From NCBI GenBank assembly GCA_965206845.1, contig OZ242221.1, positions 352,001-416,000 of the forward strand: a stretch of DNA of 64,000 nucleotides, written 5' to 3'. The notes beneath the pieces were generated by a model, which searched no databases, was not told the DNA's origin, and was given only the letters and a program-made list of their open reading frames with translations. A program made the translations under genes and the position numbers. Each line of letters opens with the position of its first letter. Position 1 is the first letter of the stretch. Positions 13,357 through 61,183 of this stretch are shown in pieces. Source of the stretch: Cenarchaeum sp. Lineage in GTDB: Archaea; Thermoproteota; Nitrososphaeria; Nitrososphaerales; Nitrosopumilaceae.

Positions 13357-16300
13357 CTACTCGACGGAGATGCGGATCTTCTGGCCGTCTATGTCGACCT
13401 GCTCGTACTCGCGGCAGACCTCCTCAAAGCTCACCTGCCTCACCCTGACCAGAAACCGGAGATCGTCTGCCCTTGCCCTGACCATCTCCAGCTGTTCTGG
13501 CTCCAGATCGAGGATCGATGCCACGTCCAGCACTGCCGTGGGGTTGTATCCCCTCTTCTTTCGCAGATCCTGCAGCCTTCTTGCCAGGTCCTTTACGAGT
13601 CCCCTAGCCACCATCTCCGGACTCCTGACGGTGGGGATCAGGACCGTGCAGCGATCCCGGCTGGCCGTGGCGTAGCCGTCCTGGGCATCAAAGCCCACGG
13701 TGACGTCGTCTGCCCCCAGCACCACGCTTTTGCACGCATCGAGAGAGAACTCGCCATTCTCGGCCAGTTCCCGCAGGATCTCGCGCGGGTCTGCCTTTGA
13801 GAATCCTGCCAGCAGGGCGGCCATGTGTTGCTTGGCTCTGGGGCCGATCCTCTTCCGGTCCAGCTGCAGTACGGGCATGACCGGCAGGCCAAGCTTCAGC
13901 ATCTCTGCCAGCCGGTCCAGCCCGGGGCTGCCTGTCAGCTCCACTATGGTGCACCTTTGCACGTTTAGCTGGGAGACCAGAAGATCCGCTAGCCGATCCA
14001 GCTTATCCTTCTGGCCAGGGGCCACGCAGACGATGGCCTCATCCAATGGCCACCGCCTCTTCAGCCTGCCGCTCATTCTCGCGGCAGCCGCCACCGAGAC
14101 TGCATCCCTCATCAGGGCAAAGGACTCCTCCAGGGGGTTGTCCTCCAAGGCGCCATCTGCCTGCGGCCAGCCATCCAGGAGTATGCTCTGCTCCCTGCCG
14201 GAGAGGCAGAGGTACAGGTACTCGCTGGTATAGGGGCACATCGGGTGAATCATGACATCCAGGGACTGGAGAGCCAGGCGCAGCACCGCGTATATGGCCA
14301 GCCGCCGATCCCTCTTTGAGCCGTCCTCGTCCCACAGCTCGCCCCTGGTAATCGGAATGTACGACTGGCTCAGCGTGTCAATGACAAACTCCTCTAGGGC
14401 CCTGGCCGACTCGTGGAACCTGCACCGGTCGTTGTTCCTGCTTACCCTCTTGATCAGCTTTTGAAGCCGGGAGAGGAGCCACATGTCAGGCGCCGTCAGG
14501 AGGCCGCGCTCTTCTGCCCAGCCCGTGTCGTACGAGTCATCAAACTTGTCATACTCGCTGTTCTGCTTGAAGTACAGGTGGAGGTTGTACAGGGTCGAGA
14601 GCACCTGGTATGGCCGGGACATCAGCTCCTCCGTGCTGAAGTTGAGCGCCTCTATGGGACTGGACTTCCACAAAAAGTAGAACCTCACCAGGTCCACCGG
14701 GTATTCCTGTAAAAGCTCCCGGGCGTCCAGCACGTTTCCCAGGCTCTTGCTCATCTTGTTTCCGTTCTTGTCAAGGACATGCCCCTGGAAAAGGAATGCG
14801 CTGTACGGCGACACTGGGGCGTCATTCAGTATCACGTTCTCCACTAGAAGCGTATACGCCCAGCCCCTGGTCTGGTCTATCCCCTCTGTGAAGAACGGCG
14901 CCGGAATGTGCCCCGAGTATGTTTCGTCGTCCAGCGACGAGTAGGGCGCCGAGCCGCTGTTGTGCCACGTGTCCAGGACGTAGGGCTCCCTCTGGGTGTC
15001 TGCGCTCCCGCATTTCTGGCAGTGCACCTTCACGCCGTCGATCCATGGGCGGTGCAGCTCAAAGTCTCTTCCGTCGGGCAGCTCGGCGGACGCCGCGACG
15101 ATCTCCTCTCTGGAGTAGAACCAGCTCCGGTGGCCGCACAGGCGGCAGCTCCAGACAGGGATCGGGCACCCCCAGAACCTCTCCCGGGATATGCACCACG
15201 GGTGCCGCTCCCTCACTATGCCCAGGAACCTGTTCCTTGGCTGCTCGTAAAAGTACTCGACTGCTTCGGCCGCCTCTATCGCCTTCTGGCCTAACCGGTC
15301 CAGCTTGTAGAACCAGCCCCTCCTTGCCAGCCACACGATCCGGTGGCGGGAGCGCCAGCAGAGGGGGTACTTGTGCTTGATCCTGCGTATGCTCACAAGG
15401 GAGCCGCCACTCTCAAGGTCGTCCACTATCCTCTGATCTGCGTCCCGGACAAACAGGCCCGCATACTCGCCTGCCTCCCGGGTGAACCTGACCTCGTCGT
15501 CTATGGGGTTGAAGACGCGCACGCCCCTCCTGTTTGCTATGCCGATATCCTCCTCGCCGTTGGCAGGCGAGAGGTGTACCAGGCCGCTGCCTGCGCCGAC
15601 ATCCACAAACTCCTCGGATACGGCGGTGTGGTAGCCCGGCTCCCGGGACAGCTCGCGCAGTTTCGGGATCCGATCCAGCAGTGGATGTATGTACCTCCTT
15701 CCCTCAAGGTCTGCTCCCGTGACGGTCCGGAGCACGGTGTGCTCCCCTATGCGGGCCTCCTGGAGAAACTCCTCCAGCCTCGTGGCGCCGACTATCCATG
15801 TCTGGTCCCCTGTCCGGATGTAGTGGTACTTCTCCCGGGGGTGGAGTCCCACCATTGCGTCAGTGACCAGCGTGAACGGCATCGTGGTCCACACCACAAG
15901 GTACGCGTCCTCATCAGCAAGCTTCACCTTGTAGTACAGGGAAGGGTCCTCCACCTCCTCGTATCCCTGGTTCACCTCGGCGTGGCTCAGCGAGGTCTGA
16001 CACGAGGGGCAGTATGCGATTACGGTGTAGTCATCCTCCAATATGCCGGTCTCGTTTGCTCGCTTGAGAAACTGCCACTCGCGCTGTATGTAACCGTCAA
16101 GAAACGTCCAGTAGGCCCCGTCGTGGTTGAGTGACATTCCCAGCAGGTTATCTGCCTCGATCCACTTCTGGCTGTACCTGTCCACCAAATCCTTGCACCT
16201 AGCCACCAGGTTCCGGATGCCCACCTTCTCCACCATCTCGCTCTTGCCGCCGGTGACGCCCATCTCCTTTTGCGCCTGCAGCTCCACGGGGAGCCCCTGG

Positions 16301-16554
16301 GTGTCCCAGCCGGCGTTGAAGATCACCTTTTTGCCCTGCAGGACGTTGTACCGGTACCACAGATCCTTGATGACCCGACCCCTCAGGTGGCCGGCATGCG
16401 GGATGCCGTTCATCGTGGGCGGGCCCTCGATGAACATAATCTCCTGATCCTTGGCGTCGGACTCGCGGATCATCCTGTGCAGATCCAGGCCGGAGTTGCG
16501 CTCCCTTATCAGGGACTCGATCCTCTTAAAGTCAAGCTCCCCCGAGAGATCCAT
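13357..16554 (-). CDS. ileS: Isoleucine--tRNA ligase
   Basis: EGPPTMNGIPHAGH (HIGH), GWDTQGLPVE, WTTMPFTL, WCISRERFWG, EGIDQTRGW, KMSKS; start placed at MDLSGELDF (16554). Confidence 0.95.
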   Translation of the reverse strand: MDLSGELDFKRIESLIRERNSGLDLHRMIRESDAKDQEIMFIEGPPTMNGIPHAGHLRGRVIKDLWYRYNVLQGKKVIFNAGWDTQGLPVELQAQKEMGVTGGKSEMVEKVGIRNLVARCKDLVDRYSQKWIEADNLLGMSLNHDGAYWTFLDGYIQREWQFLKRANETGILEDDYTVIAYCPSCQTSLSHAEVNQGYEEVEDPSLYYKVKLADEDAYLVVWTTMPFTLVTDAMVGLHPREKYHYIRTGDQTWIVGATRLEEFLQEARIGEHTVLRTVTGADLEGRRYIHPLLDRIPKLRELSREPGYHTAVSEEFVDVGAGSGLVHLSPANGEEDIGIANRRGVRVFNPIDDEVRFTREAGEYAGLFVRDADQRIVDDLESGGSLVSIRRIKHKYPLCWRSRHRIVWLARRGWFYKLDRLGQKAIEAAEAVEYFYEQPRNRFLGIVRERHPWCISRERFWGCPIPVWSCRLCGHRSWFYSREEIVAASAELPDGRDFELHRPWIDGVKVHCQKCGSADTQREPYVLDTWHNSGSAPYSSLDDETYSGHIPAPFFTEGIDQTRGWAYTLLVENVILNDAPVSPYSAFLFQGHVLDKNGNKMSKSLGNVLDARELLQEYPVDLVRFYFLWKSSPIEALNFSTEELMSRPYQVLSTLYNLHLYFKQNSEYDKFDDSYDTGWAEERGLLTAPDMWLLSRLQKLIKRVSRNNDRCRFHESARALEEFVIDTLSQSYIPITRGELWDEDGSKRDRRLAIYAVLRLALQSLDVMIHPMCPYTSEYLYLCLSGREQSILLDGWPQADGALEDNPLEESFALMRDAVSVAAAARMSGRLKRRWPLDEAIVCVAPGQKDKLDRLADLLVSQLNVQRCTIVELTGSPGLDRLAEMLKLGLPVMPVLQLDRKRIGPRAKQHMAALLAGFSKADPREILRELAENGEFSLDACKSVVLGADDVTVGFDAQDGYATASRDRCTVLIPTVRSPEMVARGLVKDLARRLQDLRKKRGYNPTAVLDVASILDLEPEQLEMVRARADDLRFLVRVRQVSFEEVCREYEQVDIDGQKIRISVE

Positions 16555-16645
16555 ATGTGGGTGAAGGAGGCAGATGACATTATGAAAGTATGGATTTTGG
16601 GCTTGCGCCAGTTGTTTTAAATTTTGAATGTGCACATATGCCGTG

Positions 16646-16940
16646 ATGCTAAACCCACAGCAGATCCTGGAGAAAAAGCCACGCCGTTTGGCCTTGTCGT
16701 GGCCGGCGTGGCGGGCATCCTCATGGCGCCAGTCATCGCCCCGCACATATTTCACGGATTCCACATGGTCCACATAGCGCTGCATGCGGCGGCGTCGTCC
16801 TGACCGCATTCCTGTCTGCGCTGGGAATCACAGCATACGCCAGACTGCGGACAAAGAGGATGATGCTGACGGCTGCAGGGTTCCTGGTGTTTGTTGCGGC
16901 CGAATCGATGATGTCTTTGGCTCCCTCTAGGGCCGCATAA
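16646..16940 (+). pseudogene. Frameshifted, truncated small membrane protein
   Basis: Consecutive frames give PFGLVVAGVAGILMAPVIAPHIFHGFHMVHIALH, then GGVVLTAFLSALGITAYARLRTKRMMLTAAGFLVFVAAE, i.e. TM helices split by indels. Confidence 0.5.
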
Positions 16941-16975
16941 CTTCGATTATATACGCGCCCGCCCACAGTACTGCA

Positions 16976-18250
16976 TTGGCCAATGTCCTGGTGGTGGGAT
17001 CCGGAGGCAGGGAACACGCCCTCTCTTGGAAGCTGTCCCAGAGCAGTGCGGTCGATACCGTGTTTATCGCTCCGGGAAACGGCGGAACCCGGGACAACGT
17101 GTTCGTAGCCGCCGAGGACATCGGTGGTCTGGCAGGCTTTGCAGAGAAGAACGACTGCTTTACCGTGGTAGGCCCCGAGGTGCCCCTGTCCATGGGTATT
17201 GTCGACCTGTTCCGCCGGAGGAACCTGGAGATCTTCGGGCCCACGGGGGGCTCCGCGCAGCTCGAGTCCAGCAAGATCTGGGCAAAGCAGTTCATGAAGA
17301 GGAACGGCATCCCCACTGCGGGGTTTGAGGTGTTTGATGACAGGAAAGAGGCGCTAGAGTACGTGGCTAGCACGCCGCACCAGGTGGTCGTAAAGGCCGA
17401 CGGGCTGGCAGCCGGAAAGGGCGTGTTTGTGTGCTCTGATGCGGCAGGGGCAGGGGATGCCGTGGATGCCATACTGGGCAGAAATGTGTTCGGGCGGGCG
17501 GGCAGCCGCATAGTGGTGGAGGAGAGGATCGACGGCGTCGAGGCGTCGTACATCGCCCTGTGCGACGGCGACACCGTGGTGCCCATGGCGACCAGCCAGG
17601 ATCACAAGAGGATATACGACGGGGACAGGGGTCCGAACACCGGCGGCATGGGGGCCTACTCGCCCACGCCGGCGGTGGATGCAGAGATTGCGGCGAAGAT
17701 CCAGAGCCGGATCATAGAGCCCACCGTCTCTGCCATGAAGGGCCTCGGCCTCCCATTCCAGGGATTCCTCTATGCCGGAATAATGGTAAAGGACGGGGAG
17801 CCGTACGTGCTGGAGTTCAACACCAGGATGGGCGATCCCGAGTGCCAGCCGATTGTCATGAGAATGGACTTTGACCTCTACGAGTACCTGCTTGAGTGCT
17901 CCCGGGGCAGGCTGTCCCGGCTCCCTGCCCCGCGCTGGAAGAGCCAGAGCGCTGTGTGCGTCGTGCTGGCATCCCGCGGATACCCGGGGAAGTACCCCAA
18001 GGGCGAGGAGATAACGGGTCTTGGGGAGGTACGCGACGGCATGGTGTTTCACGCTGGAACCCGGAGGGACTCGGGCCGGGTTCTGACCACCGGCGGCAGG
18101 GTGCTGGGCGTGACAGCTCTGGGCTCGGATCTGAGGGATGCGGTGTCGCGGGCGTACTCGATGGCAGACAAGATACGCTGGCCACACAAGCACTGCCGGA
18201 CGGACATTGGGAGTTGGGGCCTGTCCGGCGCGGATCAGGCCGCCCTGTGA
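16976..18250 (+). CDS. purD: Phosphoribosylamine--glycine ligase
   Basis: VGSGGREHAL, KADGLAAGKGV, QDHKRIYDGDRGPNTGGMGAY, EFNTRMGDPE. Confidence 0.95.
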   Translation: MANVLVVGSGGREHALSWKLSQSSAVDTVFIAPGNGGTRDNVFVAAEDIGGLAGFAEKNDCFTVVGPEVPLSMGIVDLFRRRNLEIFGPTGGSAQLESSKIWAKQFMKRNGIPTAGFEVFDDRKEALEYVASTPHQVVVKADGLAAGKGVFVCSDAAGAGDAVDAILGRNVFGRAGSRIVVEERIDGVEASYIALCDGDTVVPMATSQDHKRIYDGDRGPNTGGMGAYSPTPAVDAEIAAKIQSRIIEPTVSAMKGLGLPFQGFLYAGIMVKDGEPYVLEFNTRMGDPECQPIVMRMDFDLYEYLLECSRGRLSRLPAPRWKSQSAVCVVLASRGYPGKYPKGEEITGLGEVRDGMVFHAGTRRDSGRVLTTGGRVLGVTALGSDLRDAVSRAYSMADKIRWPHKHCRTDIGSWGLSGADQAAL

Positions 18251-18807
18251 TCGGTCCTAAAGGCGCCATTCTCTGTTGCCACCCAGTGCACCCTCATGTC
18301 GTGCCCGTCAAACGGGATCGACTCCACAACCTGCAGCCGGTACGCGACTGCAATTGATGTGGCACCCGAGCCGCCAAGAAACCGGTCATAGTACCCGTGG
18401 CCATATCCCAGCCGGTGGCCGTCAGGGGCAACCCCCACGGCCGGCACAACGACCACGTCCATATCGCAGCATGTTGGGCATCTCTCCTTGGGCACCATGA
18501 TGCCAAACCGCCCCATCTCCAAGTCCTCCGGCCCGCCCACCGCGCAAAACACCATGTCGTCCCCGAGTATCCTGGGCAGCAGCACCTGCACCCCTCGGGA
18601 TATGGCATCTCGCATGATCTCCTGGGTCTGCACCTCGCTTCCCACGGGATGGTACAGGGCCATCCTGCGGGCCCGGGAGAACGCATCAATGCCATTCAGG
18701 CTGGAGTGTATCTTTTTGCTTGCGATCCTGGCATAGTCCGCAGGTATGGCGTTGCGCCTTTGCAGGAGGATCCGGCGGAGGGATTCCTTTGACGTGCTAT
18801 CTGCCAG
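18235..18807 (-). CDS. 5-formyltetrahydrofolate cyclo-ligase (probable CTG start)
   Basis: VVPAVGVAPDGHRLGYGHGYYDRFL, HDMRVH; the frame stays open upstream of ATG 18663 and encodes the typical KESLRRILLQRR N-terminal helix. Confidence 0.85.
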   Translation of the reverse strand: MADSTSKESLRRILLQRRNAIPADYARIASKKIHSSLNGIDAFSRARRMALYHPVGSEVQTQEIMRDAISRGVQVLLPRILGDDMVFCAVGGPEDLEMGRFGIMVPKERCPTCCDMDVVVVPAVGVAPDGHRLGYGHGYYDRFLGGSGATSIAVAYRLQVVESIPFDGHDMRVHWVATENGAFRTDHRAA

Positions 18808-19657
18808 CCCGGGCCAGCTCCGCTGCTGCGACCGTGTTTCTCAAAAGCATCGCAACCGTCATGGGCCCGACTCCCCCGGGAACCGGCGTGACTAGGGACG
18901 CCTTTTGTATCACGTCCTCATAATCCGCATCGCCTGCGAGCCTTCCCTCGTGTCTTGTTATTGCCACATCGATTATCACCGCCCCGTCCTTTATCATGTC
19001 CCGGGTCAGCAGGAACTTTGCCCTGTTGCCCACTGCCGTGACTATGACGTCAGCCAGGCGCGTATGCCGTGCCAGATCTTTGGTCTTTGAGTGGCAGGTG
19101 GTCACGGTCGCGTCCCGGGCCAGCAGCATGTGGTACAGCGGCCTTCCGATCAGGTTGCTGCGGTTTATCACCACCACATGCCTGCCCCGGAGATCGACGT
19201 TGTGGTAGTCCAGCATCCTCATGATTCCCGAGGGCGTGCACGCAGCAAACGGCGCCCTGCCCATCGAGAGCAGGCCTGCGCTGCTCGGGGTCAGGCCGTC
19301 CACGTCCTTTGAGGGCAGCATTTTAGATATGATCTCAAAGCTGTCCAGGTGATCCGGCAGTGGCAGCTGCACCAGTATTCCGTGAACCCGGTCGTTGCAG
19401 TTGAGCGAGTCCACCAGCCTGCCAAGCTCCTCCTGCGTGATCGAGGCGGAAAGGCGGTGATCATCTGTTGCAATCCCGGCCTCCTGGCACGCCTTGTGCT
19501 TGTTTCTGACATATGTAGCCGAGGCCGGATCGTCTCCCACCAGTATGGTCGCAAGGCAGGGCAGGATGCCCTCGCGCTTTAGCGCGTCAACGGCCTCCTT
19601 TACCTCGAGCCTCACCGACTGCGCAATCACCTTGCCGTCAATCTTGCCGCCACTCAA
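18797..19657 (-). CDS. folD: Bifunctional methylenetetrahydrofolate dehydrogenase/cyclohydrolase
   Basis: IDGKVIA, YVRNKHKAC, GILVQLPLP, KDVDG, TPVPGGVGPMT; start TTG 19657 or ATG 19675. Confidence 0.95.
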   Translation of the reverse strand: MSGGKIDGKVIAQSVRLEVKEAVDALKREGILPCLATILVGDDPASATYVRNKHKACQEAGIATDDHRLSASITQEELGRLVDSLNCNDRVHGILVQLPLPDHLDSFEIISKMLPSKDVDGLTPSSAGLLSMGRAPFAACTPSGIMRMLDYHNVDLRGRHVVVINRSNLIGRPLYHMLLARDATVTTCHSKTKDLARHTRLADVIVTAVGNRAKFLLTRDMIKDGAVIIDVAITRHEGRLAGDADYEDVIQKASLVTPVPGGVGPMTVAMLLRNTVAAAELARAGR

Positions 19658-22779: not shown

Positions 22780-23358
22780 ATGATATCAATGGAAAAGGCG
22801 GCAGCCGGATGGTCTATAGCCATCGTAGCAATTTTTGTCGCACTTGCAGCAGCTGGTGACTCGGTTCAGAGCACAAGCGCGCCGATAGCAGTTCCCTCCG
22901 CCCCACCCGCAGTTGTTGAGCAACCAGTAGAGGCAGAGACGATGATAGAAGAAGGGCTCATGATAGAAGAAGCGATGGCCGAAGAGGAGGAGGAGGCCAT
23001 GGCAGAAGAGGAAGCGATGGCCGAAGAAGAGGAGGCAACAACAGAGCCCACAGAACCGCAGACCGTAACAGTCGAGATACCCATAGACACGGCACTCCCA
23101 GGATGTGAGATCACCGACGCATGCTACATACCCGGCTCCGTAACCATCAATGTTGGCGACACGGTGGCATGGGACAACGCAGACATCGCTGCACACACGG
23201 TAACAAGCGGCTCACCTCAAACCGGACCGAGCGGAGAATTCGACAGCAGCCTGATCATAGGCGGAGCGATATTTGAGGTGACCTTTGACGAGGCTGGAAG
23301 TTACGAGTACTTTTGCCTGGTCCATCCCTGGATGTTAGGCACTGTCGATGTAAGCTAA
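22780..23358 (+). CDS. Membrane-anchored plastocyanin/cupredoxin (blue copper) protein
   Basis: N-terminal TM helix, acidic linker, PGCEITDACYIP, AHTVTSG, type-1 Cu ligands YFCLVHPWM. Confidence 0.9.
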   Translation: MISMEKAAAGWSIAIVAIFVALAAAGDSVQSTSAPIAVPSAPPAVVEQPVEAETMIEEGLMIEEAMAEEEEEAMAEEEAMAEEEEATTEPTEPQTVTVEIPIDTALPGCEITDACYIPGSVTINVGDTVAWDNADIAAHTVTSGSPQTGPSGEFDSSLIIGGAIFEVTFDEAGSYEYFCLVHPWMLGTVDVS

Positions 23359-23540
23359 GGGAATTATATACATGAGTACACAGTACACTTGCCTTTTTCT
23401 GGCGCTCTTGCAACCCTCCCGGCGCTTGGCTCTCGCGCCCTGTCTGGGGAACGCGCGGGAGCAATCCCGCGCTGGTGTCTCGCGTCTTTGGACGACCATC
23501 CCGGCCGCCCTGCCGCCACGGCTTCCGCCCTGGAGGCAAT
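23359..23540 (-). ncRNA. Putative omegaRNA (reRNA) scaffold overlapping the tnpB 3' end
   Basis: Region after RuvC-III is conserved at DNA level with copy 2 and contains the invariant hairpin GCGCGGGA-TTGC-TCCCGCGC; position matches known TnpB omegaRNAs; boundaries inferred. Confidence 0.45.
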
Positions 23541-25067
23541 GTTATGCGCGGCATTGATGTCCGCGTTGACGTCATTGTCACATCTGTCATTGGTACAGCG
23601 GAACTCGCCCCGCGACACCCTGGATTCCTTGTCACTGTGGCCGCACCTGTGGCATGTTATGCTGGTGCCCTTGGGGTCCACCATAATTACAGTCACGCCC
23701 GCGTTCTCACAGGCGCCCCTGATCTGGCGCTGGAACGTCCCGGGCCTGGAGTAGGCCATCTCGCGGTTGAGCCCGGTCTTGGCCGTGCTTCCCTTTCCCT
23801 TGGCTCTTGCAGTCATGTTCACGAGGTTGAGGTCCTCCATGGCCACCGTTCCCGCGCCGTCCGCTATCCTCTTGGAGGCGTGGCGCTCCCAGTTGGTTTG
23901 CCTGTTGGCGAGCTTCTCGTGCTTCTTCCTGATCTTTCTCTGGAGCTCCTTGTAGCTTCTTGACTTGGGCTTCCTTGCCTCGTTCCTGTTGCGGCCGCTG
24001 GTGTTGTTGCTGCTGCCGCCGTTGGCGCCGTTCCCGCCGTCCGAGCCATCGCTCACGCCACTGGCGCCTTCCTTGGCATCCTGTTTGGTGCGCCTGTTGC
24101 CCCTCCCGCCGCGCTTCCTAGAGAGCTCCGAGTACATCTTCGATATGTCGTCGTTCTTCGCCCTCCTGCAGTCCTTTGGGAGGTCATAGAATGTGGGGTG
24201 GCCGGTGCCAAGGTCGACGGTGGCGGCGCCGTGGACTATGCCCATGTCGACGCCCCTGGTTACCGTGGACTCCGACGGCCCTGGGGCCTTGGTTTCAACC
24301 TGGATGTGGAGCCGGTACGTCCTGTTGTGGTCCTCGGTGCGTTTCGTGGTCCTCTTGGTCGTCTCGACGAGCTGGAAGGAGAGCATTTCGAGGCCATCCA
24401 CGTCGCCGTGCACCCTCACTATGCCGATACCGGGAAGATGCAGCATGCCGTTGCCCTTGTACACGGGATTCCTGAACACGGAGAGGGACCGCTGCTCCCC
24501 CTTCCTCTTAAACAGGGAATCCCTGTGGGTCCATTCGTTCCTCTTGTTGCTCCACTTGTTCGACGGCAGGTTGGGCGCGGTGCCGATGTCCGGTATCCCC
24601 TCCTTTTCCCGTTCCCGCCTGGCCAGGCGTTTCCACAGGGACTTGTTGGAGCGCTTTTTGCCGTTGGATGCCATGAATTTTTTTACGGCGTCAAGGCCCA
24701 GCAGGAGCCCCGCCCTCTGCACCCTGCTGTAGCAGGCCTCCTTGCGTCCAGCGGCCCGCGCTTTCTTGTCATGGACCAGCCACCCGTTTGCGTCCCTCCA
24801 TTTGGTGAGCATCTTGTTGAGGTCGAACTTGGTTGTCCTCGGGTCTTTCAGCTTTTCCCGCACCGCCATGTTGAACGCCCACCTCTGCTGGTCCATGTGG
24901 CGCGATATGAGATCCGACGTCTCGGCAGACTGGTCAAAGTCCATTTTTATGGTGCGTATCATGATGCCCTCCATTGGGCGCTTTGACCACTTTTTTGGCG
25001 CCGGCTCGGTTGCCGTTGCTGTTGCCGCTGCCGTTGGCGCAGTTGTGGTTGCCACGATGGGTTTCAT
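23364..25067 (-). CDS. tnpB: TnpB-like RNA-guided RuvC endonuclease (567 aa)
   Basis: RuvC-I RGVDMGI, RuvC-II VAMEDLN, TSITCHRC...FRCTNDRC zinc ribbon, RuvC-III NADINAAHNI; start at MKPIVA is supported by a TATA box about 25 nt upstream. Confidence 0.88.
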   Translation of the reverse strand: MKPIVATTTAPTAAATATATEPAPKKWSKRPMEGIMIRTIKMDFDQSAETSDLISRHMDQQRWAFNMAVREKLKDPRTTKFDLNKMLTKWRDANGWLVHDKKARAAGRKEACYSRVQRAGLLLGLDAVKKFMASNGKKRSNKSLWKRLARREREKEGIPDIGTAPNLPSNKWSNKRNEWTHRDSLFKRKGEQRSLSVFRNPVYKGNGMLHLPGIGIVRVHGDVDGLEMLSFQLVETTKRTTKRTEDHNRTYRLHIQVETKAPGPSESTVTRGVDMGIVHGAATVDLGTGHPTFYDLPKDCRRAKNDDISKMYSELSRKRGGRGNRRTKQDAKEGASGVSDGSDGGNGANGGSSNNTSGRNRNEARKPKSRSYKELQRKIRKKHEKLANRQTNWERHASKRIADGAGTVAMEDLNLVNMTARAKGKGSTAKTGLNREMAYSRPGTFQRQIRGACENAGVTVIMVDPKGTSITCHRCGHSDKESRVSRGEFRCTNDRCDNDVNADINAAHNIASRAEAVAAGRPGWSSKDARHQRGIAPARSPDRAREPSAGRVARAPEKGKCTVYSCI

Positions 25068-25090
25068 TACCGCATGCAAATGCCAGCCGA

Positions 25091-25100
25091 GTATAAAAGG
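25091..25100 (-). promoter_or_regulatory. TATA box of tnpB copy 1
   Basis: CCTTTTATAC about 25 nt upstream of the ATG; CCTTTTATGC occupies the same position in copy 2. Confidence 0.6.
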
Positions 25101-25628
25101 AGATATGGCGGTGCCGCGCCTGCCAGTGAGGTTCCGGCCGCCACGGTGTGGCGCCGGCACCGCGCGGGAACGGCGCCCCGGACGGAAGGCCCGAAGATGA
25201 CGGGTTTTGGCCGCTTTTGCATGCGGCTGCCGCCTTGCGCCAATGCCGGATCGGTTTGGGACGGCTCCCCATGCGGATCCGGCATTTGCCTGTATGAAAG
25301 GCGCAACCAAGCCGCCGCCTTCCGGGGCTCCTGCCTGCCTCGGGATGCCGGCCGGCATCGGAAAACCGGATGCAATTGCCGGCCCGTCATGAATCGGGAA
25401 GGCCGGTCTGTCGGACCGCATGATCGGCCGGGACGGGAAGCCCCGGCCATGCGGCAGCGCCGACAGTTTACTTAACTATGTAATTCCCTAAGTTAACCCA
25501 AAAACAAGGCCTTTTTGTCTCCCGATACCCGCACGAGTGTGGGATTACCCATAGCATCAAGATGAGGAACCTGCGCGGGAGCGGCCACACACGGGCAAGT
25601 TGCGCTTGCAGGAGGGCAGATACTGGCC

Positions 25629-27209: not shown

Positions 27210-29980
27210 CGGCTCATGAATTTTTTCAGGTACTTGCCCGTGTAGCTTCCCGGCGATGCAGATATCTGCTCCGGGGTTCCTGTGGCAACCACCCGGCCGC
27301 CCTCAAGGCCGCCCTCGGGGCCCAGGTCTATGACCCAGTCCGAGTTTCCTATAACGTCCATGTTGTGCTCTATCACAACCGCGGTGTTTCCCAGGTTTAC
27401 CAGCCGGTTGATGACCTCCAGCAGCTTCTGAACGTCCGCAAAGTGCAGGCCGGTCGTCGGCTCGTCCAGTATGTACATCGTCCTTCCCGTGTCCGTCTTT
27501 GAGAGCTCCGCTGCCAGCTTTACCCTCTGGGCCTCGCCGCCGGACAGCGTGGTGGAGGACTGGCCCAGCTTGATGTACCCAAGGCCCACGTCGTATATGG
27601 TCTGCATCTTTTTTCTGATCGAGGGCACGTTCTCAAAGAACTTGATGGCCTCATCCACCGTCATGCCCAGCACGTCAGATACGTTCTTCCCCTTGTACCG
27701 CACCATCAGGGTCTCTGAGTTGTACCTCTTGCCGTGGCACCGGTCGCACTGCACGTACACGTCTGAGAGGAACTGCATCTCGATCCGCTTCAGGCCGTTT
27801 CCCTCGCACTCAAAGCACCTTCCCGCATCCACGTTAAAGGAGAACTGGCTTATCGTGTACCCCATCTCCTTTGCCCTGCCGGTCTTGGCAAAGATCTGCC
27901 GGATGGGCGTAAAGGCGCCTATGTATGTGGCGGGGTTGGATCGCGGCGTCCTGCCGATGGGAGACTGGTCGATTGCAATGATCCTGTCTATGTTGCCAAT
28001 ACCCAGAATCCGGTCGTGCTTGCCCGGTATCCTTCTCTTGTCGTGGAGCTTGTACTCGAGCGACTTTAGCAGGATCTCGTTTACGAGTGATGACTTGCCA
28101 GAGCCGGACACTCCGGTGACCACGATAAAGAGCCCCAGGGGAAACTCGACGTCGATGGACTTGAGGTTGTTTACGGCCGCCCCCTCGACCAGGATGCTGC
28201 CGTTCTGCCGCCTTGTCCGCTCCTTGAGGGTTATCACTTCCTTGCCGTTGAGGTACCTGCCAGTAATCGAGCTGTCGCTGCCGAGCATCTTCTGGACGGT
28301 TCCCTCAAAGACTATCCTGCCGCCGTTTACCCCGGCCCGCGGTCCCAGGTCTATGATCCAGTCCGAGCTCCGTATCACCTCCTCGTCGTGCTCGACCACG
28401 ATTATGGTGTTTCCCAGATCCCGCAGCTTGGCCAGCGTCCTGATGAGCCTGGCGTTGTCCCTCTGGTGCAGGCCGACGGTGGGCTCGTCTAGGACGTACA
28501 GGACACCGGTGAGGTTTGAGCCTATCTGCGTCGCCAGCCTGATCCTCTGGGACTCGCCTCCCGACAGCGAGGAGCTGGACCGGCCCAGGGTGAGGTAGTC
28601 AAGCCCCACGTTTCGCAGAAACTCCAGCCTGCCCCTGATCTCCTTTAGGACGTCCCGGGCGATGTACTGCTCCGTGTCAGACAGGTTTATGGTGGAAAAA
28701 AAGTCATAGCACTGATCCACGGGCAGATCGCAGACGTCCATTATCCCCATGCCGCCGACCGTTACCGCCCGCGCCTCTGCATTGAGCTTTTTTCCGTTGC
28801 AGGTATCGCATGGGATGTCCATCATCAGGTGGTCCAGCCGGTCCCTGCCCATTCCGTAGTAGCTGCTCGCATGCAGCCTGTACAGGCAGTCAAATATGCC
28901 CATGTATGTACCCGACAGGCCGCGTCTGGCATCAGAGCCGTGAAGCAGCAGGTCCAGCTGCTTGGCGGCCATCTTCCTTATGGGCATGTTCATCTTGATA
29001 CCGGCAGCCTTCAGGGTACGGCGCAGTGCTGAACCAAACGAGTCCACAAGGTAGTCCCACGGGACTATGGCCCCCTCAAGGATGGACTTGGAATCATCCG
29101 GAATTATCAGATCCCGGTGAAACACCCGGGAGTGTCCCAGGCCGTTGCACTCCTTGCACATCCCAAACGGGGAGTTGAACGAGAACGAGCGCGGCTCAAG
29201 TGTGCCGATGCTGATCTTGCACTTGGGGCAGGCATTGTTCTGGGAGAATATGCGGTCGTCTGCCTCTGCTGATATCATCACGTAGCCCTTGGCCGCCCTC
29301 AGTGCTGTCCCCACGGACTCGAACAGCCTGGACCGCTCTGACTTTTCTGCGGTCAGGCGATCCACGACAATCTCGACGTTGTGCCACTTTTGCTTGTCTA
29401 GGGGTGGCATCTCCCCGTCAAGCGGCACAATGCTGCCGTCCACCCGTATCCGGGAGTAGCCGTCCTTTTTGATCGACTCAAAGAGCCAGTCATATGTCCC
29501 CTTTTTGTGCTGCACCACGGGCGCCAGCACAAGCACCTGCCGGCCCTGAAACTCCTTGAGGACCGTATCGCAGATTGCCTCGACTGACTGGCTGGATATC
29601 ACCCCGCCGCACCGGATGCAGTGCGGTATGCCCACCCGCGCGTACAGCAGCCTCATGTAATCATAAATCTCCGTGACGGTTCCCACCGTGGAGCGGGGGT
29701 TCTTGCTGGTGGTCTTCTGCTGTATCGATATTGCGGGGGAGAGTCCGTCGATCGAGTCCACATCCGGCTTGTCCATCATCTCAAGGAACTGGCGCGCGTA
29801 CGCCGACAGGGACTCGACGTACCTTCGCTGGCCCTCTGCGTACAGGGTGTCAAAGGCAAGGGTGGACTTGCCAGAGCCAGACAGGCCGCTGATTACAACC
29901 AGCCTGTTCTTTGGTATGTCCACATCAATGTTCTTCAGGTTGTGCTGCCTGGCGCCGCGGATCTTTACCTTATCTTCCAT
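27206..29980 (-). CDS. uvrA: Excinuclease ABC subunit A
   Basis: GARQHNLKN, GLSGSGKS, LSGGESQRIRLA, GVSGSGKS, LSGGEAQRVKLA. Confidence 0.95.
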   Translation of the reverse strand: MEDKVKIRGARQHNLKNIDVDIPKNRLVVISGLSGSGKSTLAFDTLYAEGQRRYVESLSAYARQFLEMMDKPDVDSIDGLSPAISIQQKTTSKNPRSTVGTVTEIYDYMRLLYARVGIPHCIRCGGVISSQSVEAICDTVLKEFQGRQVLVLAPVVQHKKGTYDWLFESIKKDGYSRIRVDGSIVPLDGEMPPLDKQKWHNVEIVVDRLTAEKSERSRLFESVGTALRAAKGYVMISAEADDRIFSQNNACPKCKISIGTLEPRSFSFNSPFGMCKECNGLGHSRVFHRDLIIPDDSKSILEGAIVPWDYLVDSFGSALRRTLKAAGIKMNMPIRKMAAKQLDLLLHGSDARRGLSGTYMGIFDCLYRLHASSYYGMGRDRLDHLMMDIPCDTCNGKKLNAEARAVTVGGMGIMDVCDLPVDQCYDFFSTINLSDTEQYIARDVLKEIRGRLEFLRNVGLDYLTLGRSSSSLSGGESQRIRLATQIGSNLTGVLYVLDEPTVGLHQRDNARLIRTLAKLRDLGNTIIVVEHDEEVIRSSDWIIDLGPRAGVNGGRIVFEGTVQKMLGSDSSITGRYLNGKEVITLKERTRRQNGSILVEGAAVNNLKSIDVEFPLGLFIVVTGVSGSGKSSLVNEILLKSLEYKLHDKRRIPGKHDRILGIGNIDRIIAIDQSPIGRTPRSNPATYIGAFTPIRQIFAKTGRAKEMGYTISQFSFNVDAGRCFECEGNGLKRIEMQFLSDVYVQCDRCHGKRYNSETLMVRYKGKNVSDVLGMTVDEAIKFFENVPSIRKKMQTIYDVGLGYIKLGQSSTTLSGGEAQRVKLAAELSKTDTGRTMYILDEPTTGLHFADVQKLLEVINRLVNLGNTAVVIEHNMDVIGNSDWVIDLGPEGGLEGGRVVATGTPEQISASPGSYTGKYLKKFMSR

Positions 29981-59120: not shown

Positions 59121-59158
59121 CGCTCACTGTTTGTGCAGGGTGGTTTAATAGTTGATCA

Positions 59159-59181
59159 GGGAATTATATACAAAAGTACAC
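59159..59181 (+). repeat. Terminal inverted repeat (tnpB 3' side), copy 2
   Basis: GGGAATTATATACAAAAGTACAC. Confidence 0.9.
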
Positions 59182-59340
59182 AGTACCTTTGCCTTTTGCT
59201 GGCGCTCTTGCACTGCCTCCCACGCTTGGCTCTCGCGTGCTGTTTGCGGAACGCGCGGGAGCAATCCCGCGCTGACTTCTCGCGCCTTCAGACGACAATC
59301 CCTGCCGCCCTGCCGCCACGGCTTCCGCCCTGGAGGCAAT
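59159..59340 (-). ncRNA. Putative omegaRNA scaffold overlapping the tnpB 3' end
   Basis: Same hairpin as copy 1 at 59253-59272, at an identical distance from the element end; boundaries inferred. Confidence 0.45.
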
Positions 59341-60870
59341 GTTATGCGCGGCATTCACGTCCGCGTCGATGTCATTGTAACACTTGTCATTGGTGCAGCG
59401 GAACTCCCCCCGCGACACCCTGGATTCCTTGTCCTTGCGCCCGCAGGCGCTGCATGTTATGCTCGTCCCCTTGGGGTCCACCATTATCACGGTGACGCCC
59501 GCGTTCTTGCAGGCGCCCTTTATCTGGCGCTGGAACGTGCCCGGCCTCGAGTAGGCCATCTCGCGGTTGAGCCCCGTCTTTGCCGAGCTTCCCTTGCCCT
59601 TTACCTTGGCTGTCATGTTGTTGAGGTCCAGATCCTCCATAACCACCGTTCCCGCGCCGTCCGCTATCTTCTTGGAGGCGTGCCTTTCCCAGTTCGTCTG
59701 GCGGTTGGCTATCTTTTCCCTCTTTTTCCGGATCCTCCTGTGGAGTTCCTTGTAGCCCCTTGACTTTGGCTTCCTCGGCTTGTTCCTGTTGTGGCCGCTG
59801 GTGTTGTTCTTGGTGTCGCCGTTGGTGCCGGTACCACCGTCCGCGCCCTCGCTTACGCCGTCCGCGCCCTCCTTGGCGTCCTGCCTGATCCTGCGGTTGC
59901 CGCGTCCCCCGCGCTTCCGTGAGAGCTCCGAGTACATTTTCGATATGTCGTCGTTCTTGGAGCGCCTGCAGCCCTTGGGGAGGTCATAAAACGCGTGGCT
60001 GCCCGTGTCCAGGTCGACTGTGGCGGCGCCATGGACTATGCCCATATCGACCCCGCGTACGGTGCCGGATTCCGATGACTCTGGAGCCCTGGTTTTGACC
60101 TGGATGTGGAGCCTGTATGTCCTGTTGTGGCTCTCGGTGCGCTTGGTCGTCTTCTTCGTGGTCTCGACGAGCTGGAAGGATCGCATGTCCAATCCCTCCA
60201 CGTTGCCGTGCACCCTCACGGTGCCTATGGCGGGAAGGTGCAGCAGGCCGTTGCCCTTGTACACGGGACGCTTGAACACAGTTAGGGCCTTCGTTTCCCC
60301 CTTTTTGCTGAACAGGGTGTCCCTGAAGCGCCACTTGTTCCTCTTGTTGCTCCACTTGTTGGACGGCAGGTTGGGCGCGGTGTCGATGTCCTTGACGCCC
60401 TCCTTTTCCCTGTATTTCCTGGCCAGGTACTTCCATAATGACTTGTTGCGGCGCTTTTTGCCGTTTGACTTCATGAACTTCTTTACCGCGTCCAGGCCCT
60501 GCTGGAGCCCCGCCCTCTGCACCCTGCTGTCGCAGGCCTCCCTGAGTCCTGCTGCCGGCGCGTCCTCGTCGTGTACGAGCCACGCCCTCCCGTCCCTCCA
60601 TTTGGTGAGCATGCTGTTGAGGTCGAACTTGGTTGTCCTCGGGTCGTTGAGCTTCTCCTTGACTGCCATGTTGAATGCCCACCTCTGCTGGTCCATGTGA
60701 CGGGATATGAGATCCGACAGCTCTCCGGACTGGTCAAAGTCCACCTTTATGGTGCGCACCATGGAGCCCTCCATTGAGCGCCTTGGCCACTTTTTTGGCT
60801 TCTGCGGCGCCGTAGATGCCGCTGTTGGGGTTGCAGCTGCAGGCGCTGTTGCCGCCATTCTGGCTTTCAT
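59164..60870 (-). CDS. tnpB: TnpB-like RNA-guided RuvC endonuclease (568 aa)
   Basis: RGVDMGI, VVMEDLD, TSITCSAC...FRCTNDKC, DADVNAAHNI; colinear homolog of copy 1; start at MKARMA. Confidence 0.88.
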   Translation of the reverse strand: MKARMAATAPAAATPTAASTAPQKPKKWPRRSMEGSMVRTIKVDFDQSGELSDLISRHMDQQRWAFNMAVKEKLNDPRTTKFDLNSMLTKWRDGRAWLVHDEDAPAAGLREACDSRVQRAGLQQGLDAVKKFMKSNGKKRRNKSLWKYLARKYREKEGVKDIDTAPNLPSNKWSNKRNKWRFRDTLFSKKGETKALTVFKRPVYKGNGLLHLPAIGTVRVHGNVEGLDMRSFQLVETTKKTTKRTESHNRTYRLHIQVKTRAPESSESGTVRGVDMGIVHGAATVDLDTGSHAFYDLPKGCRRSKNDDISKMYSELSRKRGGRGNRRIRQDAKEGADGVSEGADGGTGTNGDTKNNTSGHNRNKPRKPKSRGYKELHRRIRKKREKIANRQTNWERHASKKIADGAGTVVMEDLDLNNMTAKVKGKGSSAKTGLNREMAYSRPGTFQRQIKGACKNAGVTVIMVDPKGTSITCSACGRKDKESRVSRGEFRCTNDKCYNDIDADVNAAHNIASRAEAVAAGRQGLSSEGARSQRGIAPARSANSTREPSVGGSARAPAKGKGTVYFCI

Positions 60871-61053
60871 CTCTACAGGAACATACCACGTGTTGCATAA
60901 AAGGTGACGCGGCGCCGCCGCGCCGGCCGTCAGCCCTGCAATGGCGACCGATGCCGTTGTGCGGCCCGTGCGGTTCCGGCCGTCATGGTTGCCGCGCGGG
61001 CGCCGCGCAATGGAAGCGCGCCCGACGTGAAGCCGAAAAAGTGTAGAAGGCCG

Positions 61054-61076
61054 GTGTACTTTTGTATATAATTCCC
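61054..61076 (-). repeat. Terminal inverted repeat (tnpB 5' side), copy 2
   Basis: GTGTACTTTTGTATATAATTCCC, exact reverse complement of 59159-59181. Confidence 0.9.
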
Positions 61077-61183
61077 GTTGATCACACCGGGGGTTTGCTG
61101 CTTCCGCCCCGGGGCACTCTGCCCTGGCGCGGCCCGGGCAGCAGACAGAATACATTAAATGAATCCAGACACAGGGATACACC

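What the first reader, a model, noticed from the sequence alone, without database searches (positions are those of the whole stretch)
59151..61084. TnpB nuclease in a TIR/TSD-bounded element with no TnpA: candidate IS1595-type cassette carrying an RNA-guided nuclease
Seen in the sequence: a 1918-bp element whose only recognisable gene is a TnpB with intact D-E-D triad and zinc ribbon. It is bounded by a perfect 23-bp TIR (GGGAATTATATACAAAAGTACAC) and a perfect 8-bp duplication (GTTGATCA). Established: prokaryotic TnpB normally lives in IS200/IS605 (HUH TnpA, subterminal hairpins) or IS607 (serine recombinase) elements, which make neither TIRs nor TSDs. An 8-bp TSD with GGnnATTAT-type ends matches my recollection of the ISNwi group of the IS1595 DDE family, which is known to carry passenger genes. 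Inference: TnpB was captured by a DDE transposon and is mobilised in trans, an archaeal parallel to Fanzors in eukaryotic TIR transposons.
Basis: partly seen in the sequence, partly recalled or inferred. Interest (0 to 1): 0.92.

Follow-up and report, generated by a model that had tools for sequence, protein, structure and literature searches.

The report
TnpB nuclease inside IS1595-type transposon
A 1.9-kb mobile element in an archaeal genome carries an RNA-guided nuclease gene (TnpB) and its guide-RNA scaffold but uses the ends of a different, DDE-type transposon family (IS1595); the general combination is already published, but here its anatomy and recent mobility are unusually clear.

Summary
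Window 59159-61076 is a 1918-bp element with perfect 23-bp TIRs and an 8-bp duplication (GTTGATCA). A related strain has the exact empty site with one GTTGATCA. It is one of 15 diverged TnpB-bearing copies in this 1.65-Mb genome. 10 of 16 TIR pairs have perfect 8-bp TSDs. Two more exact presence/absence sites separate this genome from a 99%-identical strain. The only conserved gene is TnpB, with D243/E380/D472 and the zinc finger intact. The ~200 nt between its catalytic core and the TIR is constrained as RNA, not protein. It forms a covarying, sense-strand-specific fold whose last hairpin lies in the TIR. The same 12-nt terminus and 8-bp TSD bound IS1595-family DDE transposase genes in related genomes (14 of 29 loci) and a decayed DDE gene here. 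The genome has no Y1 or serine TnpA. Best reading: a non-autonomous IS1595-type element carrying a TnpB/omegaRNA module, mobilised in trans. New here: the base 5' of the target 8-mer, in TnpB orientation, is G in 17 of 17 elements, which looks like a TAM. DDE-linked, TIR-bounded and solo TnpBs were already published in 2023, so this is a new variant, not a new kind.

The parts
59139..59158 (-). Predicted guide-encoding flank: the 8-bp TSD copy (59151-59158) plus about 12 nt beyond it, immediately 3' of the scaffold on the TnpB sense strand
   Evidence: Inference from position only. The conserved fold ends in the TIR and similarity between copies stops at the TIR end. No RNA data.
59151..59158 (.). 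Target-site duplication, left copy (GTTGATCA)
   Evidence: The empty-site contig in X3 has a single copy.
59159..59181 (.). Terminal inverted repeat next to the TnpB 3' end. It also holds the ORF's stop codon (59164-59166) and the 3' arm of the last RNA hairpin (59170-59178)
   Evidence: 23/23; helix 8.
59170..59365 (-). omegaRNA-like structured scaffold: 8 helices, 51 pairs. It overlaps the RuvC-III coding end and the non-coding-like ORF tail
   Evidence: RNAalifold on 16 copies. 97.5% of cells paired against 91.3% in shuffles (0/500); 47 double-change cells against 16.2 (0/500); 35-51% paired when slid. Invariant G-U pairs make it sense-strand specific. Tail codon-position entropy 0.38/0.38/0.30 against 0.30/0.26/0.76 in the core.
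59164..60774 (-). TnpB open reading frame (536 aa as read). The conserved protein is about residues 1-482 (59329-60774); D243, E380, D472; Zn finger C441/C444/C460/C465
60775..61053 (-). Poorly conserved 5' leader between the TIR and the TnpB start; no conserved ORF
   Evidence: entropy 0.96 bits; 0.48-0.60 identity per 50-nt bin.
61054..61076 (.). Terminal inverted repeat at the TnpB 5' side. In other copies it is the variant that resembles the gene-proximal end of IS1595 transposase elements
61077..61084 (.). Target-site duplication, right copy (GTTGATCA)
61085..61085 (-). Conserved flanking G (C on the + strand) immediately 5' of the target 8-mer in TnpB orientation: candidate TAM position
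   Evidence: G in 15/15 elements of this genome plus L029 and L030. Controls are unbiased.

Best explanation
The element is a non-autonomous member of an IS1595-family (DDE, TIR, 8-bp TSD) transposon lineage. The transposase gene has been replaced by a TnpB gene together with its omegaRNA scaffold.

Shown:
- Precise insertion with an 8-bp duplication at AT-rich sites.
- Recent presence/absence between near-identical strains.
- TnpB under purifying selection with an intact RuvC triad.
- A conserved, covarying, sense-strand RNA fold running from the RuvC-III coding region into the TIR.
- The same terminus and TSD length around IS1595 transposase genes in relatives.

Inferred:
- An IS1595 DDE transposase supplied in trans binds the shared 12-nt termini and moves the element.
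- A transcript through the TnpB 3' end yields an omegaRNA whose scaffold ends at the transposon boundary. Its guide is therefore the duplicated 8-mer plus the downstream flank.
- TnpB loaded with this RNA can recognise only the unoccupied allele, in which that sequence is preceded by the conserved G rather than by the TIR end (...TTCCC). Cutting it would favour recombinational re-copying of the element (homing or retention), as proposed for IS605/IS607 TnpB and for Fanzors.
For: Boundaries and mobility:
- 23/23 TIR and 8/8 TSD.
- Three exact empty sites: the window copy in an X3 contig; E972386 absent from L029; the L029 element absent from this genome. L029's flanks are 99.0-99.3% identical to this genome.

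Family:
- 45 termini match the 12-nt core with at most 1 mismatch.
- 16 TIR pairs: 10 have 8/8 TSDs and 2 have 7/8, against a chance rate of 5e-5.
- Pairwise nucleotide identity of the elements is at most 85%, median 74%.

TnpB:
- NF040570 114.9 bits.
- Catalytic residues conserved.
- Third-position entropy 0.76-0.93 against 0.26-0.61 at positions 1 and 2 in the core.
- 11 of 15 copies are read nearly full-length without internal stops. A 12th has its only stop in the non-coding-like tail.

RNA:
-.
- The same architecture folds in L030, whose TnpB is only 31% identical.

DDE link:
- PF12762 119.6 bits and NF033547 160.2 bits for the intact gene at genome 27524-28465.
- A pseudogene (residues 1-143, 59% identity, 2 stops) abuts a perfect core terminus.
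- 14 of 29 relatives' DDE loci have the terminus 41-56 nt upstream.
- L186 and L194 have 22/22 and 21/22 TIRs with 8/8 TSDs.

Other:
- No Y1 or serine recombinase in a 99.99%-complete genome.
- All 16 PF07282 matches lie in this family.
- TAM-like G in 17/17; controls A2 G5 C5 T3 and T4 A3 C4 G3.
Against: - No element holds both the DDE gene and this TnpB within one TIR pair in anything I examined. L212 shows a DDE gene and a TnpB side by side, but that TnpB has its own, different TIRs.
- The only intact DDE gene in this genome has an end that matches the TnpB-element TIRs at 16-18 of 23 positions, with 3 mismatches in the 12-nt core. It has no partner end within 2 kb: best 13/23, the same as random windows. 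The transposase that moved these copies is therefore not identified.
- No RNA data exist for the scaffold. All runs were DNA or unknown and held as contigs. Rfam has no match.
- The covariation controls are inflated by relatedness and by deriving the structure from the same sequences. Two of the five measures (pairs with a double change, further pair types) did not exceed the shuffles: 98/500 and 157/500.
- A single conserved G is far less than the 3-5-nt TAMs known for TnpBs (recalled). In Fanzor/TIR transposons the TSD is reported to be part of the scaffold rather than of the guide (PMC10711439, Fig. 5 legend). That would place a TAM elsewhere.
- The unbiased DDE-element control comes from other genomes and other transposase lineages.
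Confidence: 0.78

Rival explanations
1. The conserved G 5' of the target 8-mer is an asymmetric target preference of the mobilising DDE transposase, or a by-product of how the two unlike ends are synapsed. On this view it is not a TnpB TAM, and TnpB plays no part in site survival.
For: The target 8-mers are AT-rich (73% against 43% for the genome) and start with T in 10 of 12 clean TSDs, so the transposase does have a sequence preference. The one DDE remnant in this genome also has G at the equivalent position (L197). The unbiased DDE control (T4 A3 C4 G3) comes from other genomes with 59-66% identical transposases.
Against: There is no mirror-image signal. Outside the 3' TIR the base is A2 G5 C5 T3, whereas DDE target preferences are usually palindromic (recalled). 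The G holds in L030, where TnpB is 31% identical and the host genus differs. The G sits exactly where a TAM would sit for a guide that starts at the transposon boundary.
Confidence: 0.3
2. TnpB itself, a RuvC/RNase H-fold enzyme, is the transposase that makes the TIR-dependent cuts and the 8-bp staggered insertion.
For: No intact transposase with matching ends is present in this genome. Yet elements differ between 99%-identical strains. TnpB is kept intact in most copies.
Against: The same terminus and TSD length bound elements that encode an IS1595 DDE transposase and no TnpB (L186 and L194; 14 of 29 loci). TnpB is documented as an RNA-guided nuclease that is not needed for transposition (PMC13565253, passage read). 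The conserved RNA scaffold fits a guide-RNA role.
Confidence: 0.04
3. An ordinary IS1341/IS605- or IS607-type TnpB unit, with its own internal ends, lies by chance inside an unrelated TIR element (MITE).
For: Nested insertions do occur in this family: an IS66-family element and a 229-bp repeat sit inside the L029 copy.
Against: All 15 TnpB copies keep the same geometry. The conserved scaffold is continuous with the TIR in all 16 aligned copies. Similarity between copies stops exactly at the TIR ends. The empty sites are exact at the TIR boundary. The genome has no Y1 or serine TnpA. The one 706-bp TIR pair without a full TnpB still holds a TnpB fragment, so it is a deletion derivative.
Confidence: 0.02
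4. The TnpB copies are decaying or domesticated passengers with no present nuclease function. The 3' conservation would then reflect subterminal transposase-binding DNA rather than an RNA.
For: There is no expression evidence. Every copy is a separate lineage at no more than 85% identity, with no recent burst. 3 of 15 copies are broken or truncated.
Against: There is a strong codon-position signature of purifying selection and conserved catalytic residues. Compensatory changes and invariant G-U pairs point to a single-stranded, sense-strand fold, not a duplex binding site. The 5' end shows no comparable subterminal conservation.
Confidence: 0.08

Closest known systems
DDE-transposase-associated TnpB branches (DDE-1 to DDE-6) of Altae-Tran et al. 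2023, PNAS (PMC10691335; section 9 read in full, other passages by search)
   Same: TnpB in elements with inverted terminal repeats. The TnpB 3' end lies within 250 bp of the transposon end (here about 165 nt from the last catalytic motif). Solo TnpBs are flanked by the same ends as transposase-bearing elements and are inferred to be mobilised in trans.
   Different: The main text names only IS630. A 2026 review (PMC13565253, passages) lists ISL2, IS630 and IS1031. 'IS1595' occurs 0 times in the main text. The supplements, which list the branches, were closed, so I cannot exclude that this clade is one of DDE-1 to DDE-5. Here no composite with the transposase was found; every copy is TnpB-only.
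Fanzor nucleases in eukaryotic TIR/TSD DNA transposons (Bao & Jurka 2013, PMC3627910, passages; Yoon et al. 2023, PMC10711439, section 28 read)
   Same: A TnpB-family nuclease inside cut-and-paste-type elements with TIRs and TSDs, often non-autonomous. The guide-RNA scaffold overlaps the TIR bases recognised by the transposase.
   Different: This is prokaryotic (archaeal SSU rRNA). It has a canonical RuvC-II glutamate context (VVMEDL) rather than the rearranged one described for the Fanzor lineage. For Fanzors the TSD is reported as part of the scaffold, whereas here the conserved G lies upstream of the 8-mer. Neither paper mentions Merlin, the eukaryotic counterpart of IS1595 (0 occurrences).
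IS1595 family of insertion sequences, as summarised in PMC8101967 (introduction passage)
   Same: 8-bp TSDs and a terminal GG. The partner transposases carry DDE_Tnp_IS1595 (117-120 bits) and match NF033547 (160-176 bits). Relatives include elements with extra non-transposase DNA (L186: 1.1 kb with a 93-aa ORF).
   Different: The window element encodes no transposase at all. Its cargo is a TnpB/omegaRNA module fused to one end. The subgroup (ISNwi or other) was not determined.
IS1341-type TnpB-only elements of the IS200/IS605 family
   Same: TnpB is the only gene, with the omegaRNA at the 3' end running to the element boundary.
   Different: Those elements lack TIRs and TSDs and depend on a Y1 TnpA. 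Here there are perfect TIRs, an 8-bp TSD and no Y1 TnpA in the genome. A contrasting TnpB family in a Nitrosopumilus MAG (about 29% identical) has subterminal inverted repeats and a CTATA junction instead.

Membership tests
TnpB (RNA-guided endonuclease, NF040570 / PF07282) | Profile match above the curated cut-off | tested here: met
   NF040570 114.9 bits (cut-off 100), residues 11-482. PF07282 58.9 bits (cut-off 26.3). PF01385 27.2 bits is below its cut-off of 30.5.
TnpB (RNA-guided endonuclease, NF040570 / PF07282) | RuvC D-E-D triad and CxxC...CxxxxC zinc finger | tested here: met
   D243, E380, D472; C441, C444, C460, C465. All are invariant or at least 90% conserved in 33 sequences. E380 and D472 align to the EDL and D..NAA motifs of PDB 9j09_A. 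The motif names are recalled.
TnpB (RNA-guided endonuclease, NF040570 / PF07282) | Structured omegaRNA/reRNA encoded at the 3' end and reaching the transposon boundary | tested here: inconclusive
   A conserved covarying sense-strand fold is present and is also predicted in L030. No transcript evidence and no Rfam family match.
TnpB (RNA-guided endonuclease, NF040570 / PF07282) | RNA-guided, TAM-dependent DNA cleavage | not testable with these tools
   Needs biochemistry. The only hint is the flanking G in 17 of 17 elements.
IS1595 family (as an autonomous IS) | Encodes a DDE_Tnp_IS1595 transposase | tested here: not met
   There is no such gene between the TIRs. The element can therefore only be a non-autonomous derivative.
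IS1595 family (ends and target) | 8-bp target-site duplication | tested here: met
   10 of 16 pairs are 8/8. Three exact empty sites. The family feature is taken from PMC8101967.
IS1595 family (ends and target) | Termini shared with transposase-bearing IS1595 elements | tested here: met
   14 of 29 DDE loci have the 12-nt core (at most 2 mismatches) 41-56 nt upstream of the gene, against 3% of random windows. L186 and L194 are complete elements. The pseudogene in this genome abuts the core.
IS1595 family (partner transposase) | [quoted passage not shown] | tested here: inconclusive
   PF12762 117.3 bits (cut-off 27) and NF033547 160.2 bits are met. PF12760 Zn_ribbon_IS1595 scores 21.5 bits, below its cut-off of 25.4.
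IS200/IS605 (including IS1341 group) | No TIR, no TSD, subterminal hairpins, Y1 HUH TnpA | tested here: not met
   Perfect TIR and TSD. PF01797 has 0 matches in a 99.99%-complete genome.
IS607 | Serine recombinase TnpA, no TIR, no TSD | tested here: not met
   PF00239 has 0 matches. TIR and TSD are present.

The most novel reading that the evidence does not exclude
In this IS1595-borne system the omegaRNA guide begins with the target-site duplication itself, and the TAM is reduced to the G (perhaps not-A then G) just upstream of the 8-mer. Only insertions that happen to land next to that G, in the right orientation, can be defended by TnpB-mediated homing into empty alleles. That survival filter would explain why 17 of 17 surviving copies carry the G while transposase-only relatives do not. 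This would be a natural record of TnpB shaping the insertion-site spectrum of a DDE cut-and-paste transposon, and a prokaryotic solution to the TSD problem different from the one described for Fanzors.
Probability: 0.35. Interest if true: 0.75.

Novelty: new variant of a known kind. Interest (0 to 1): 0.55.

Why it matters
TnpB is the ancestor of Cas12 and a compact genome-editing enzyme. How it serves transposons other than IS605/IS607 is an open question. A 2026 review argues that DDE transposons should gain little from it (PMC13565253, section 6.2 passages).

This family offers a clean natural test case:
- a small complete genome in which every TnpB sits in one TIR family;
- exact empty sites between near-identical strains;
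- a scaffold physically fused to the transposase-binding end;
- an orientation-specific flanking base that gives a concrete, cheap TAM hypothesis.

It also extends the TnpB-DDE association to the IS1595/Merlin superfamily and to ammonia-oxidiser-type archaea. The library I could search has nothing in print on either.

Tried and rejected
- Close TnpB relatives were not found in 40 relatives at E<=1e-20 or in 400 genomes of the order at E<=1e-40. The thresholds were strict, so ~30%-identical TnpBs would be missed.
- The search for related loci with the single protein found nothing in genome contigs. With alignment A1 it gave 53 loci, of which only L029 (69%) and L030 (31%) carry this TIR type.
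- The metagenome scan kept 80 loci, all distant (at most 50% identity over partial matches), and I did not analyse them further.
- The listing of cluster members gave no names or accessions.
- Rfam: the only hit is a chance-level lncRNA match, 10.5 bits against a gathering score of 70.
- The sigma-70 promoter and terminator scan is uninformative for an archaeon: 0 promoters, and 4 terminator-like sites against 3.1 expected.
- The exact scaffold-TIR junction pattern was found in 1 of 201 family genomes, this one only.
- In the MAG that holds L030, 15 core termini exist but only one pair encloses a TnpB, so it gave no extra data for the G rule.
- I looked for a DDE+TnpB composite. The L029 extra cargo is a nested IS66-family element with its own 28-nt TIRs. 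The L177/L212 neighbours are separate elements.
- I looked for the second end of the intact DDE gene and found none.
- What interrupts the DDE pseudogene (genome about 1465268-1466758) is not a repeat and was not identified.
- In read laying the element interior has 5-13 times the flank depth. That reflects contigs of other family members laid at 88% likeness, so I draw nothing from it. Stretches of the interior without long contigs are likewise not used.
- I did not build a phylogeny with Fanzors or reference TnpBs, predict a structure, or run the representative-protein search. None would change the verdict.
- The tally of 11 of 121 genomes with the DDE includes the unpublished genome G446.
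- Papers: PMC10691335, section 9 in full plus searched passages. PMC10711439, section 28 in full plus passages. PMC13565253, PMC8101967 and PMC3627910, searched passages only. All others, search listings only. Supplements were closed and not requested; the branch tables of PMC10691335 could bear on the novelty claim.
Full report
**1. The observation**

- The arms 59159-59181 and 61054-61076 are a perfect 23-nt inverted repeat.
- GTTGATCA flanks them on both sides, at 59151-59158 and 61077-61084.
- The 23-mer is not expected by chance: shuffles gave 0.00 matches.
- An 8/8 match between 8-mers 1.9 kb apart occurs at 5e-5 in this genome.
- The minus strand carries one long ORF. From M at 60774 it gives 536 aa.
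- It is a TnpB: NF040570 114.9 bits (cut-off 100) and PF07282 58.9 bits.
- D243, E380, D472 and the four zinc-finger cysteines are conserved across 33 family members.

**2. It is one of a family, and the family has moved recently**

The window is G000:C1:352001-416000 of a single-contig 1.65-Mb genome with 57.1% G+C. Its SSU rRNA matches the archaeal model end to end at 1455 bits.

Copies and duplications:
- The 12-nt core GGGAATTATATA, with at most 1 mismatch, occurs 45 times.
- I paired 16 TIR pairs of 0.7-2.6 kb. Their TSDs are 8/8 in 10 pairs, 7/8 in 2, and 6/8, 5/8, 3/8 and 1/8 in one each.
- 15 pairs hold a TnpB 63-80% identical to the window's. The sixteenth (706 bp) holds a TnpB fragment.
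- All 16 PF07282 matches in the genome lie in these elements or in one remnant.
- No two elements are more than 85% identical in DNA; the median is 74%. Each copy is therefore its own lineage.

The insertions are nevertheless young.
- A contig in run X3, from a strain about 96% identical, joins 59158 to 61090 with CACC between. This is the empty site with one GTTGATCA.
- Locus L029 is labelled as a Dehalococcoidia MAG, but its flanks are 99.0-99.3% identical to genome 972136-981869.
- L029 lacks element E972386 and has a single AATCACAA there.
- L029 also carries an element with TAACGTAG on both sides, where this genome has a single TAACGTAG.

**3. What is inside**

Codon-position entropy shows ordinary purifying selection on the TnpB core: 0.30/0.26/0.76 bits for residues 336-482.

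The last 54 codons show no periodicity (0.38/0.38/0.30). In 4 of 15 copies this tail is out of frame with the stop in the TIR. So the ORF tail is not maintained as protein.

That same stretch is the most conserved DNA of the element.

On 16 copies RNAalifold predicts 8 helices with 51 pairs, 10 of them with compensatory double changes.

| Measure | Observed | Control |
|---|---|---|
| Cells forming a standard pair | 97.5% | 91.3% in shuffles (0/500 reach it); 35-51% when slid |
| Cells with a change on both sides | 47 | 16.2 in shuffles (0/500 reach it) |
| Pairs with a change on both sides | 10 | 98/500 shuffles reach it |
| Further pair types | 31 | 157/500 shuffles reach it |

- Two of the five measures were therefore not exceptional.
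- Both controls are known to be lenient for related sequences and for a structure derived from the same data.
- Invariant G-U pairs (columns 74-90 and 77-87) would be C-A mismatches on the other strand, so the fold belongs to the TnpB sense strand.
- The last hairpin's 3' arm is TIR positions about 12-20 (window 59170-59178). It is followed by 11 unpaired nucleotides to the element end.
- The 5' side of the element has no comparable conservation (entropy 0.96).
- L030, from a Nitrosopumilus MAG, has a TnpB only 31% identical, GGGrATTATATA ends and flanks matching 7/8. Its 3' region folds into the same layout: a GGCGC...GCGCC closing helix and a terminal hairpin in the TIR.

This is the anatomy expected of an omegaRNA scaffold that ends at the transposon boundary. 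No transcript data were available.

**4. Whose ends are these?**

- The genome has one intact IS1595-family transposase gene at 27524-28465: PF12762 119.6 bits, NF033547 160.2 bits.
- It also has one decayed copy (residues 1-143, 59% identical, 2 stops). Its start lies about 17 bp inside a perfect GGGAATTATATA terminus.
- The genome has no Y1 TnpA and no serine recombinase.
- Transposases 59-66% identical occur in 11 of 121 family genomes. This tally includes one unpublished genome that I did not read.
- Of 29 loci examined, 14 have the core terminus (at most 2 mismatches) facing inward 41-56 nt upstream of the gene. Random 230-nt windows show it in 150 of 5000 cases.
- L186 and L194 are complete 2131-bp elements with 22/22 and 21/22 TIRs and perfect 8-bp TSDs. 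They hold a transposase and no TnpB.
- The published definition of the IS1595 family fits: 8-bp TSDs, and a zinc finger plus the DDE_Tnp_IS1595 domain (PMC8101967, introduction passage).

The ends of the TnpB elements are therefore the native ends of a local IS1595 clade, and the TnpB elements are its non-autonomous derivatives.

Which transposase moved them is not settled. The intact gene's own end (GGGGCTTATATCGCTGAGTACAC, 41 nt upstream) matches the TnpB-element TIRs at 16-18 of 23 positions. No partner end was found.

**5. A new detail: an orientation-specific flanking G**

I reconstructed the empty sites in TnpB orientation and compared the flanks.

| Position | Result |
|---|---|
| Base immediately 5' of the 8-mer, 15 elements of this genome | G in 15 of 15 |
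| Same position in L029 and L030 | G in both |
| First base of the 8-mer, 13 clean sites | T in 11, C in 2 |
| Mirror position outside the 3' TIR | A2 G5 C5 T3 |
| Equivalent position outside the gene-proximal end of 14 DDE-bearing loci | T4 A3 C4 G3 |

- With G at about 0.29 in this genome, 15 of 15 has a probability near 7e-9. This is my arithmetic, before allowing for the roughly 150 position-base combinations I looked at.
- In an empty site this G directly precedes the sequence that follows the scaffold in the RNA (8-mer plus downstream flank).
- In the occupied site that sequence is preceded by ...TTCCC.
- This is the logic of a TAM that lets TnpB cut empty but not occupied alleles.
- It is an inference. 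An asymmetric transposase preference is the main rival.

**6. Comparison with what is known**

- Altae-Tran et al. 2023 (PMC10691335, section 9 read) report six DDE-associated TnpB branches, all with inverted terminal repeats. They place the TnpB 3' end within 250 bp of the end. They also report solo TnpBs with the same ends as transposase-bearing elements, 'mobilized by transposases in trans'.
- Only IS630 is named in that main text. A 2026 review lists ISL2, IS630 and IS1031 (PMC13565253, passages).
- 'IS1595' is absent from that main text.
- My searches for TnpB with IS1595 returned 9 papers, none on this topic by title or abstract. Searches for TnpB with Thaumarchaeota or with Nitrosopumilus returned 0 papers each. 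Fanzor with Merlin returned 2 unrelated reviews.
- The supplements were closed, so this clade may be one of the unnamed branches.
- Yoon et al. 2023 (PMC10711439, section 28 read) show that Fanzor reRNAs in TIR transposons overlap the TIR and take the TSD into the scaffold. The present system resembles that, but the conserved base lies upstream of the TSD.

**7. Verdict**

It is not a new kind of system.

It is a well-resolved new variant: an IS1595-type partner, an archaeal host, TnpB-only copies, a scaffold fused to the TIR, and a candidate one-base TAM. It is a good experimental entry point into how TnpB serves DDE transposons.

Noticed in passing
window 23359-25488: A second member of the same family lies in the window (genome 375359-377488, 2130 bp). 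TnpB is on the minus strand, 79% identical and intact. The ends match only in the 12-nt core region (21/30). Flanks are TAAGCTAA / TAAGTTAA (7/8).
   Followed up: partly
L029 (whole locus): The record is titled as a Dehalococcoidia MAG, yet about 7 kb of its flanks are 99.0-99.3% identical to this archaeal genome (genome 972136-981869). This is probably a mis-binned contig of a near-identical strain.
   Followed up: partly
L029 6330-6558; genome 1515095-1515323, 523996-524226, 1117375-1117604, 1345389-1345617, 1111261-1111504: A ~229-bp repeat (92-97% identical copies) interrupts the TnpB gene of the L029 element. It looks like a separate MITE family.
   Followed up: no
L029 2704-4693; genome about 500712-501569 and 445727-446115: An IS66-family element (PF03050 92.2 bits, 443-aa ORF, own 28-nt TIRs) is nested just inside the TIR of the L029 TnpB element. 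Related copies exist in this genome.
   Followed up: partly
L034, L036, L038, L044, L046, L050 and others (Nitrosopumilus MAG OZ250186.1): A multi-copy TnpB family (more than 20 loci, about 29% identical to the window's) has quite different ends. A 17-nt subterminal inverted repeat (AGCGAAAGTTCGTGCAA) sits 5-6 nt inside boundaries marked by CTATA on both sides, which looks IS605/IS607-like or target-specific.
   Followed up: partly
L212 5698-7032: Beside an intact IS1595 transposase gene (L212 4164-5177) lies a 373-aa TnpB (about 30% identical) bounded by its own, different 26-nt perfect TIRs (GGTTCTGTTGGGTTAACGGGTGTTGA). TIR-bounded TnpBs may therefore have arisen more than once in these archaea.
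   Followed up: partly
genome 1188043-1189924 (L026 1471-3356): In this copy the 5' end is an inverted duplicate of about 130 nt of the 3' scaffold-TIR end (41 nt at 90% plus 100 nt at 81%). The two ends therefore seem interchangeable for transposition.
   Followed up: partly
genome 28484-28506 and 27524-28465: The only intact IS1595 transposase gene has a recognisable gene-proximal end but no detectable second end within 2 kb. Downstream of it are copies of another short repeat (GGCTCTGTTAAATTCTGGTGATC-like, also at about 226956-227194, 233866-234103 and 23220-24647). It may be immobilised.
   Followed up: partly
genome 1008048 and 1333850; 1075256-1077418: Some ends have flanks that do not pair. 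Two 5'-type ends share almost the same outer 8-mer (CATAACCG / CATAACCC), and E1075256 has unrelated flanks (1/8). This suggests recombination or duplication between copies.
   Followed up: no
TIR positions 6-12, e.g. window 59164-59170 and 61065-61071: The invariant core contains TTATATA, which resembles an archaeal TATA box (recalled). In transposase-bearing relatives it lies 41-56 nt upstream of the start codon, so the end may double as the promoter.
   Followed up: no
genome about 469514-475950 and 14541-19049: Long tandem arrays with periods of about 363 nt and about 725 nt appeared as repeated BLAST hits while I examined the DDE pseudogene region. They are unrelated to the finding.
   Followed up: no
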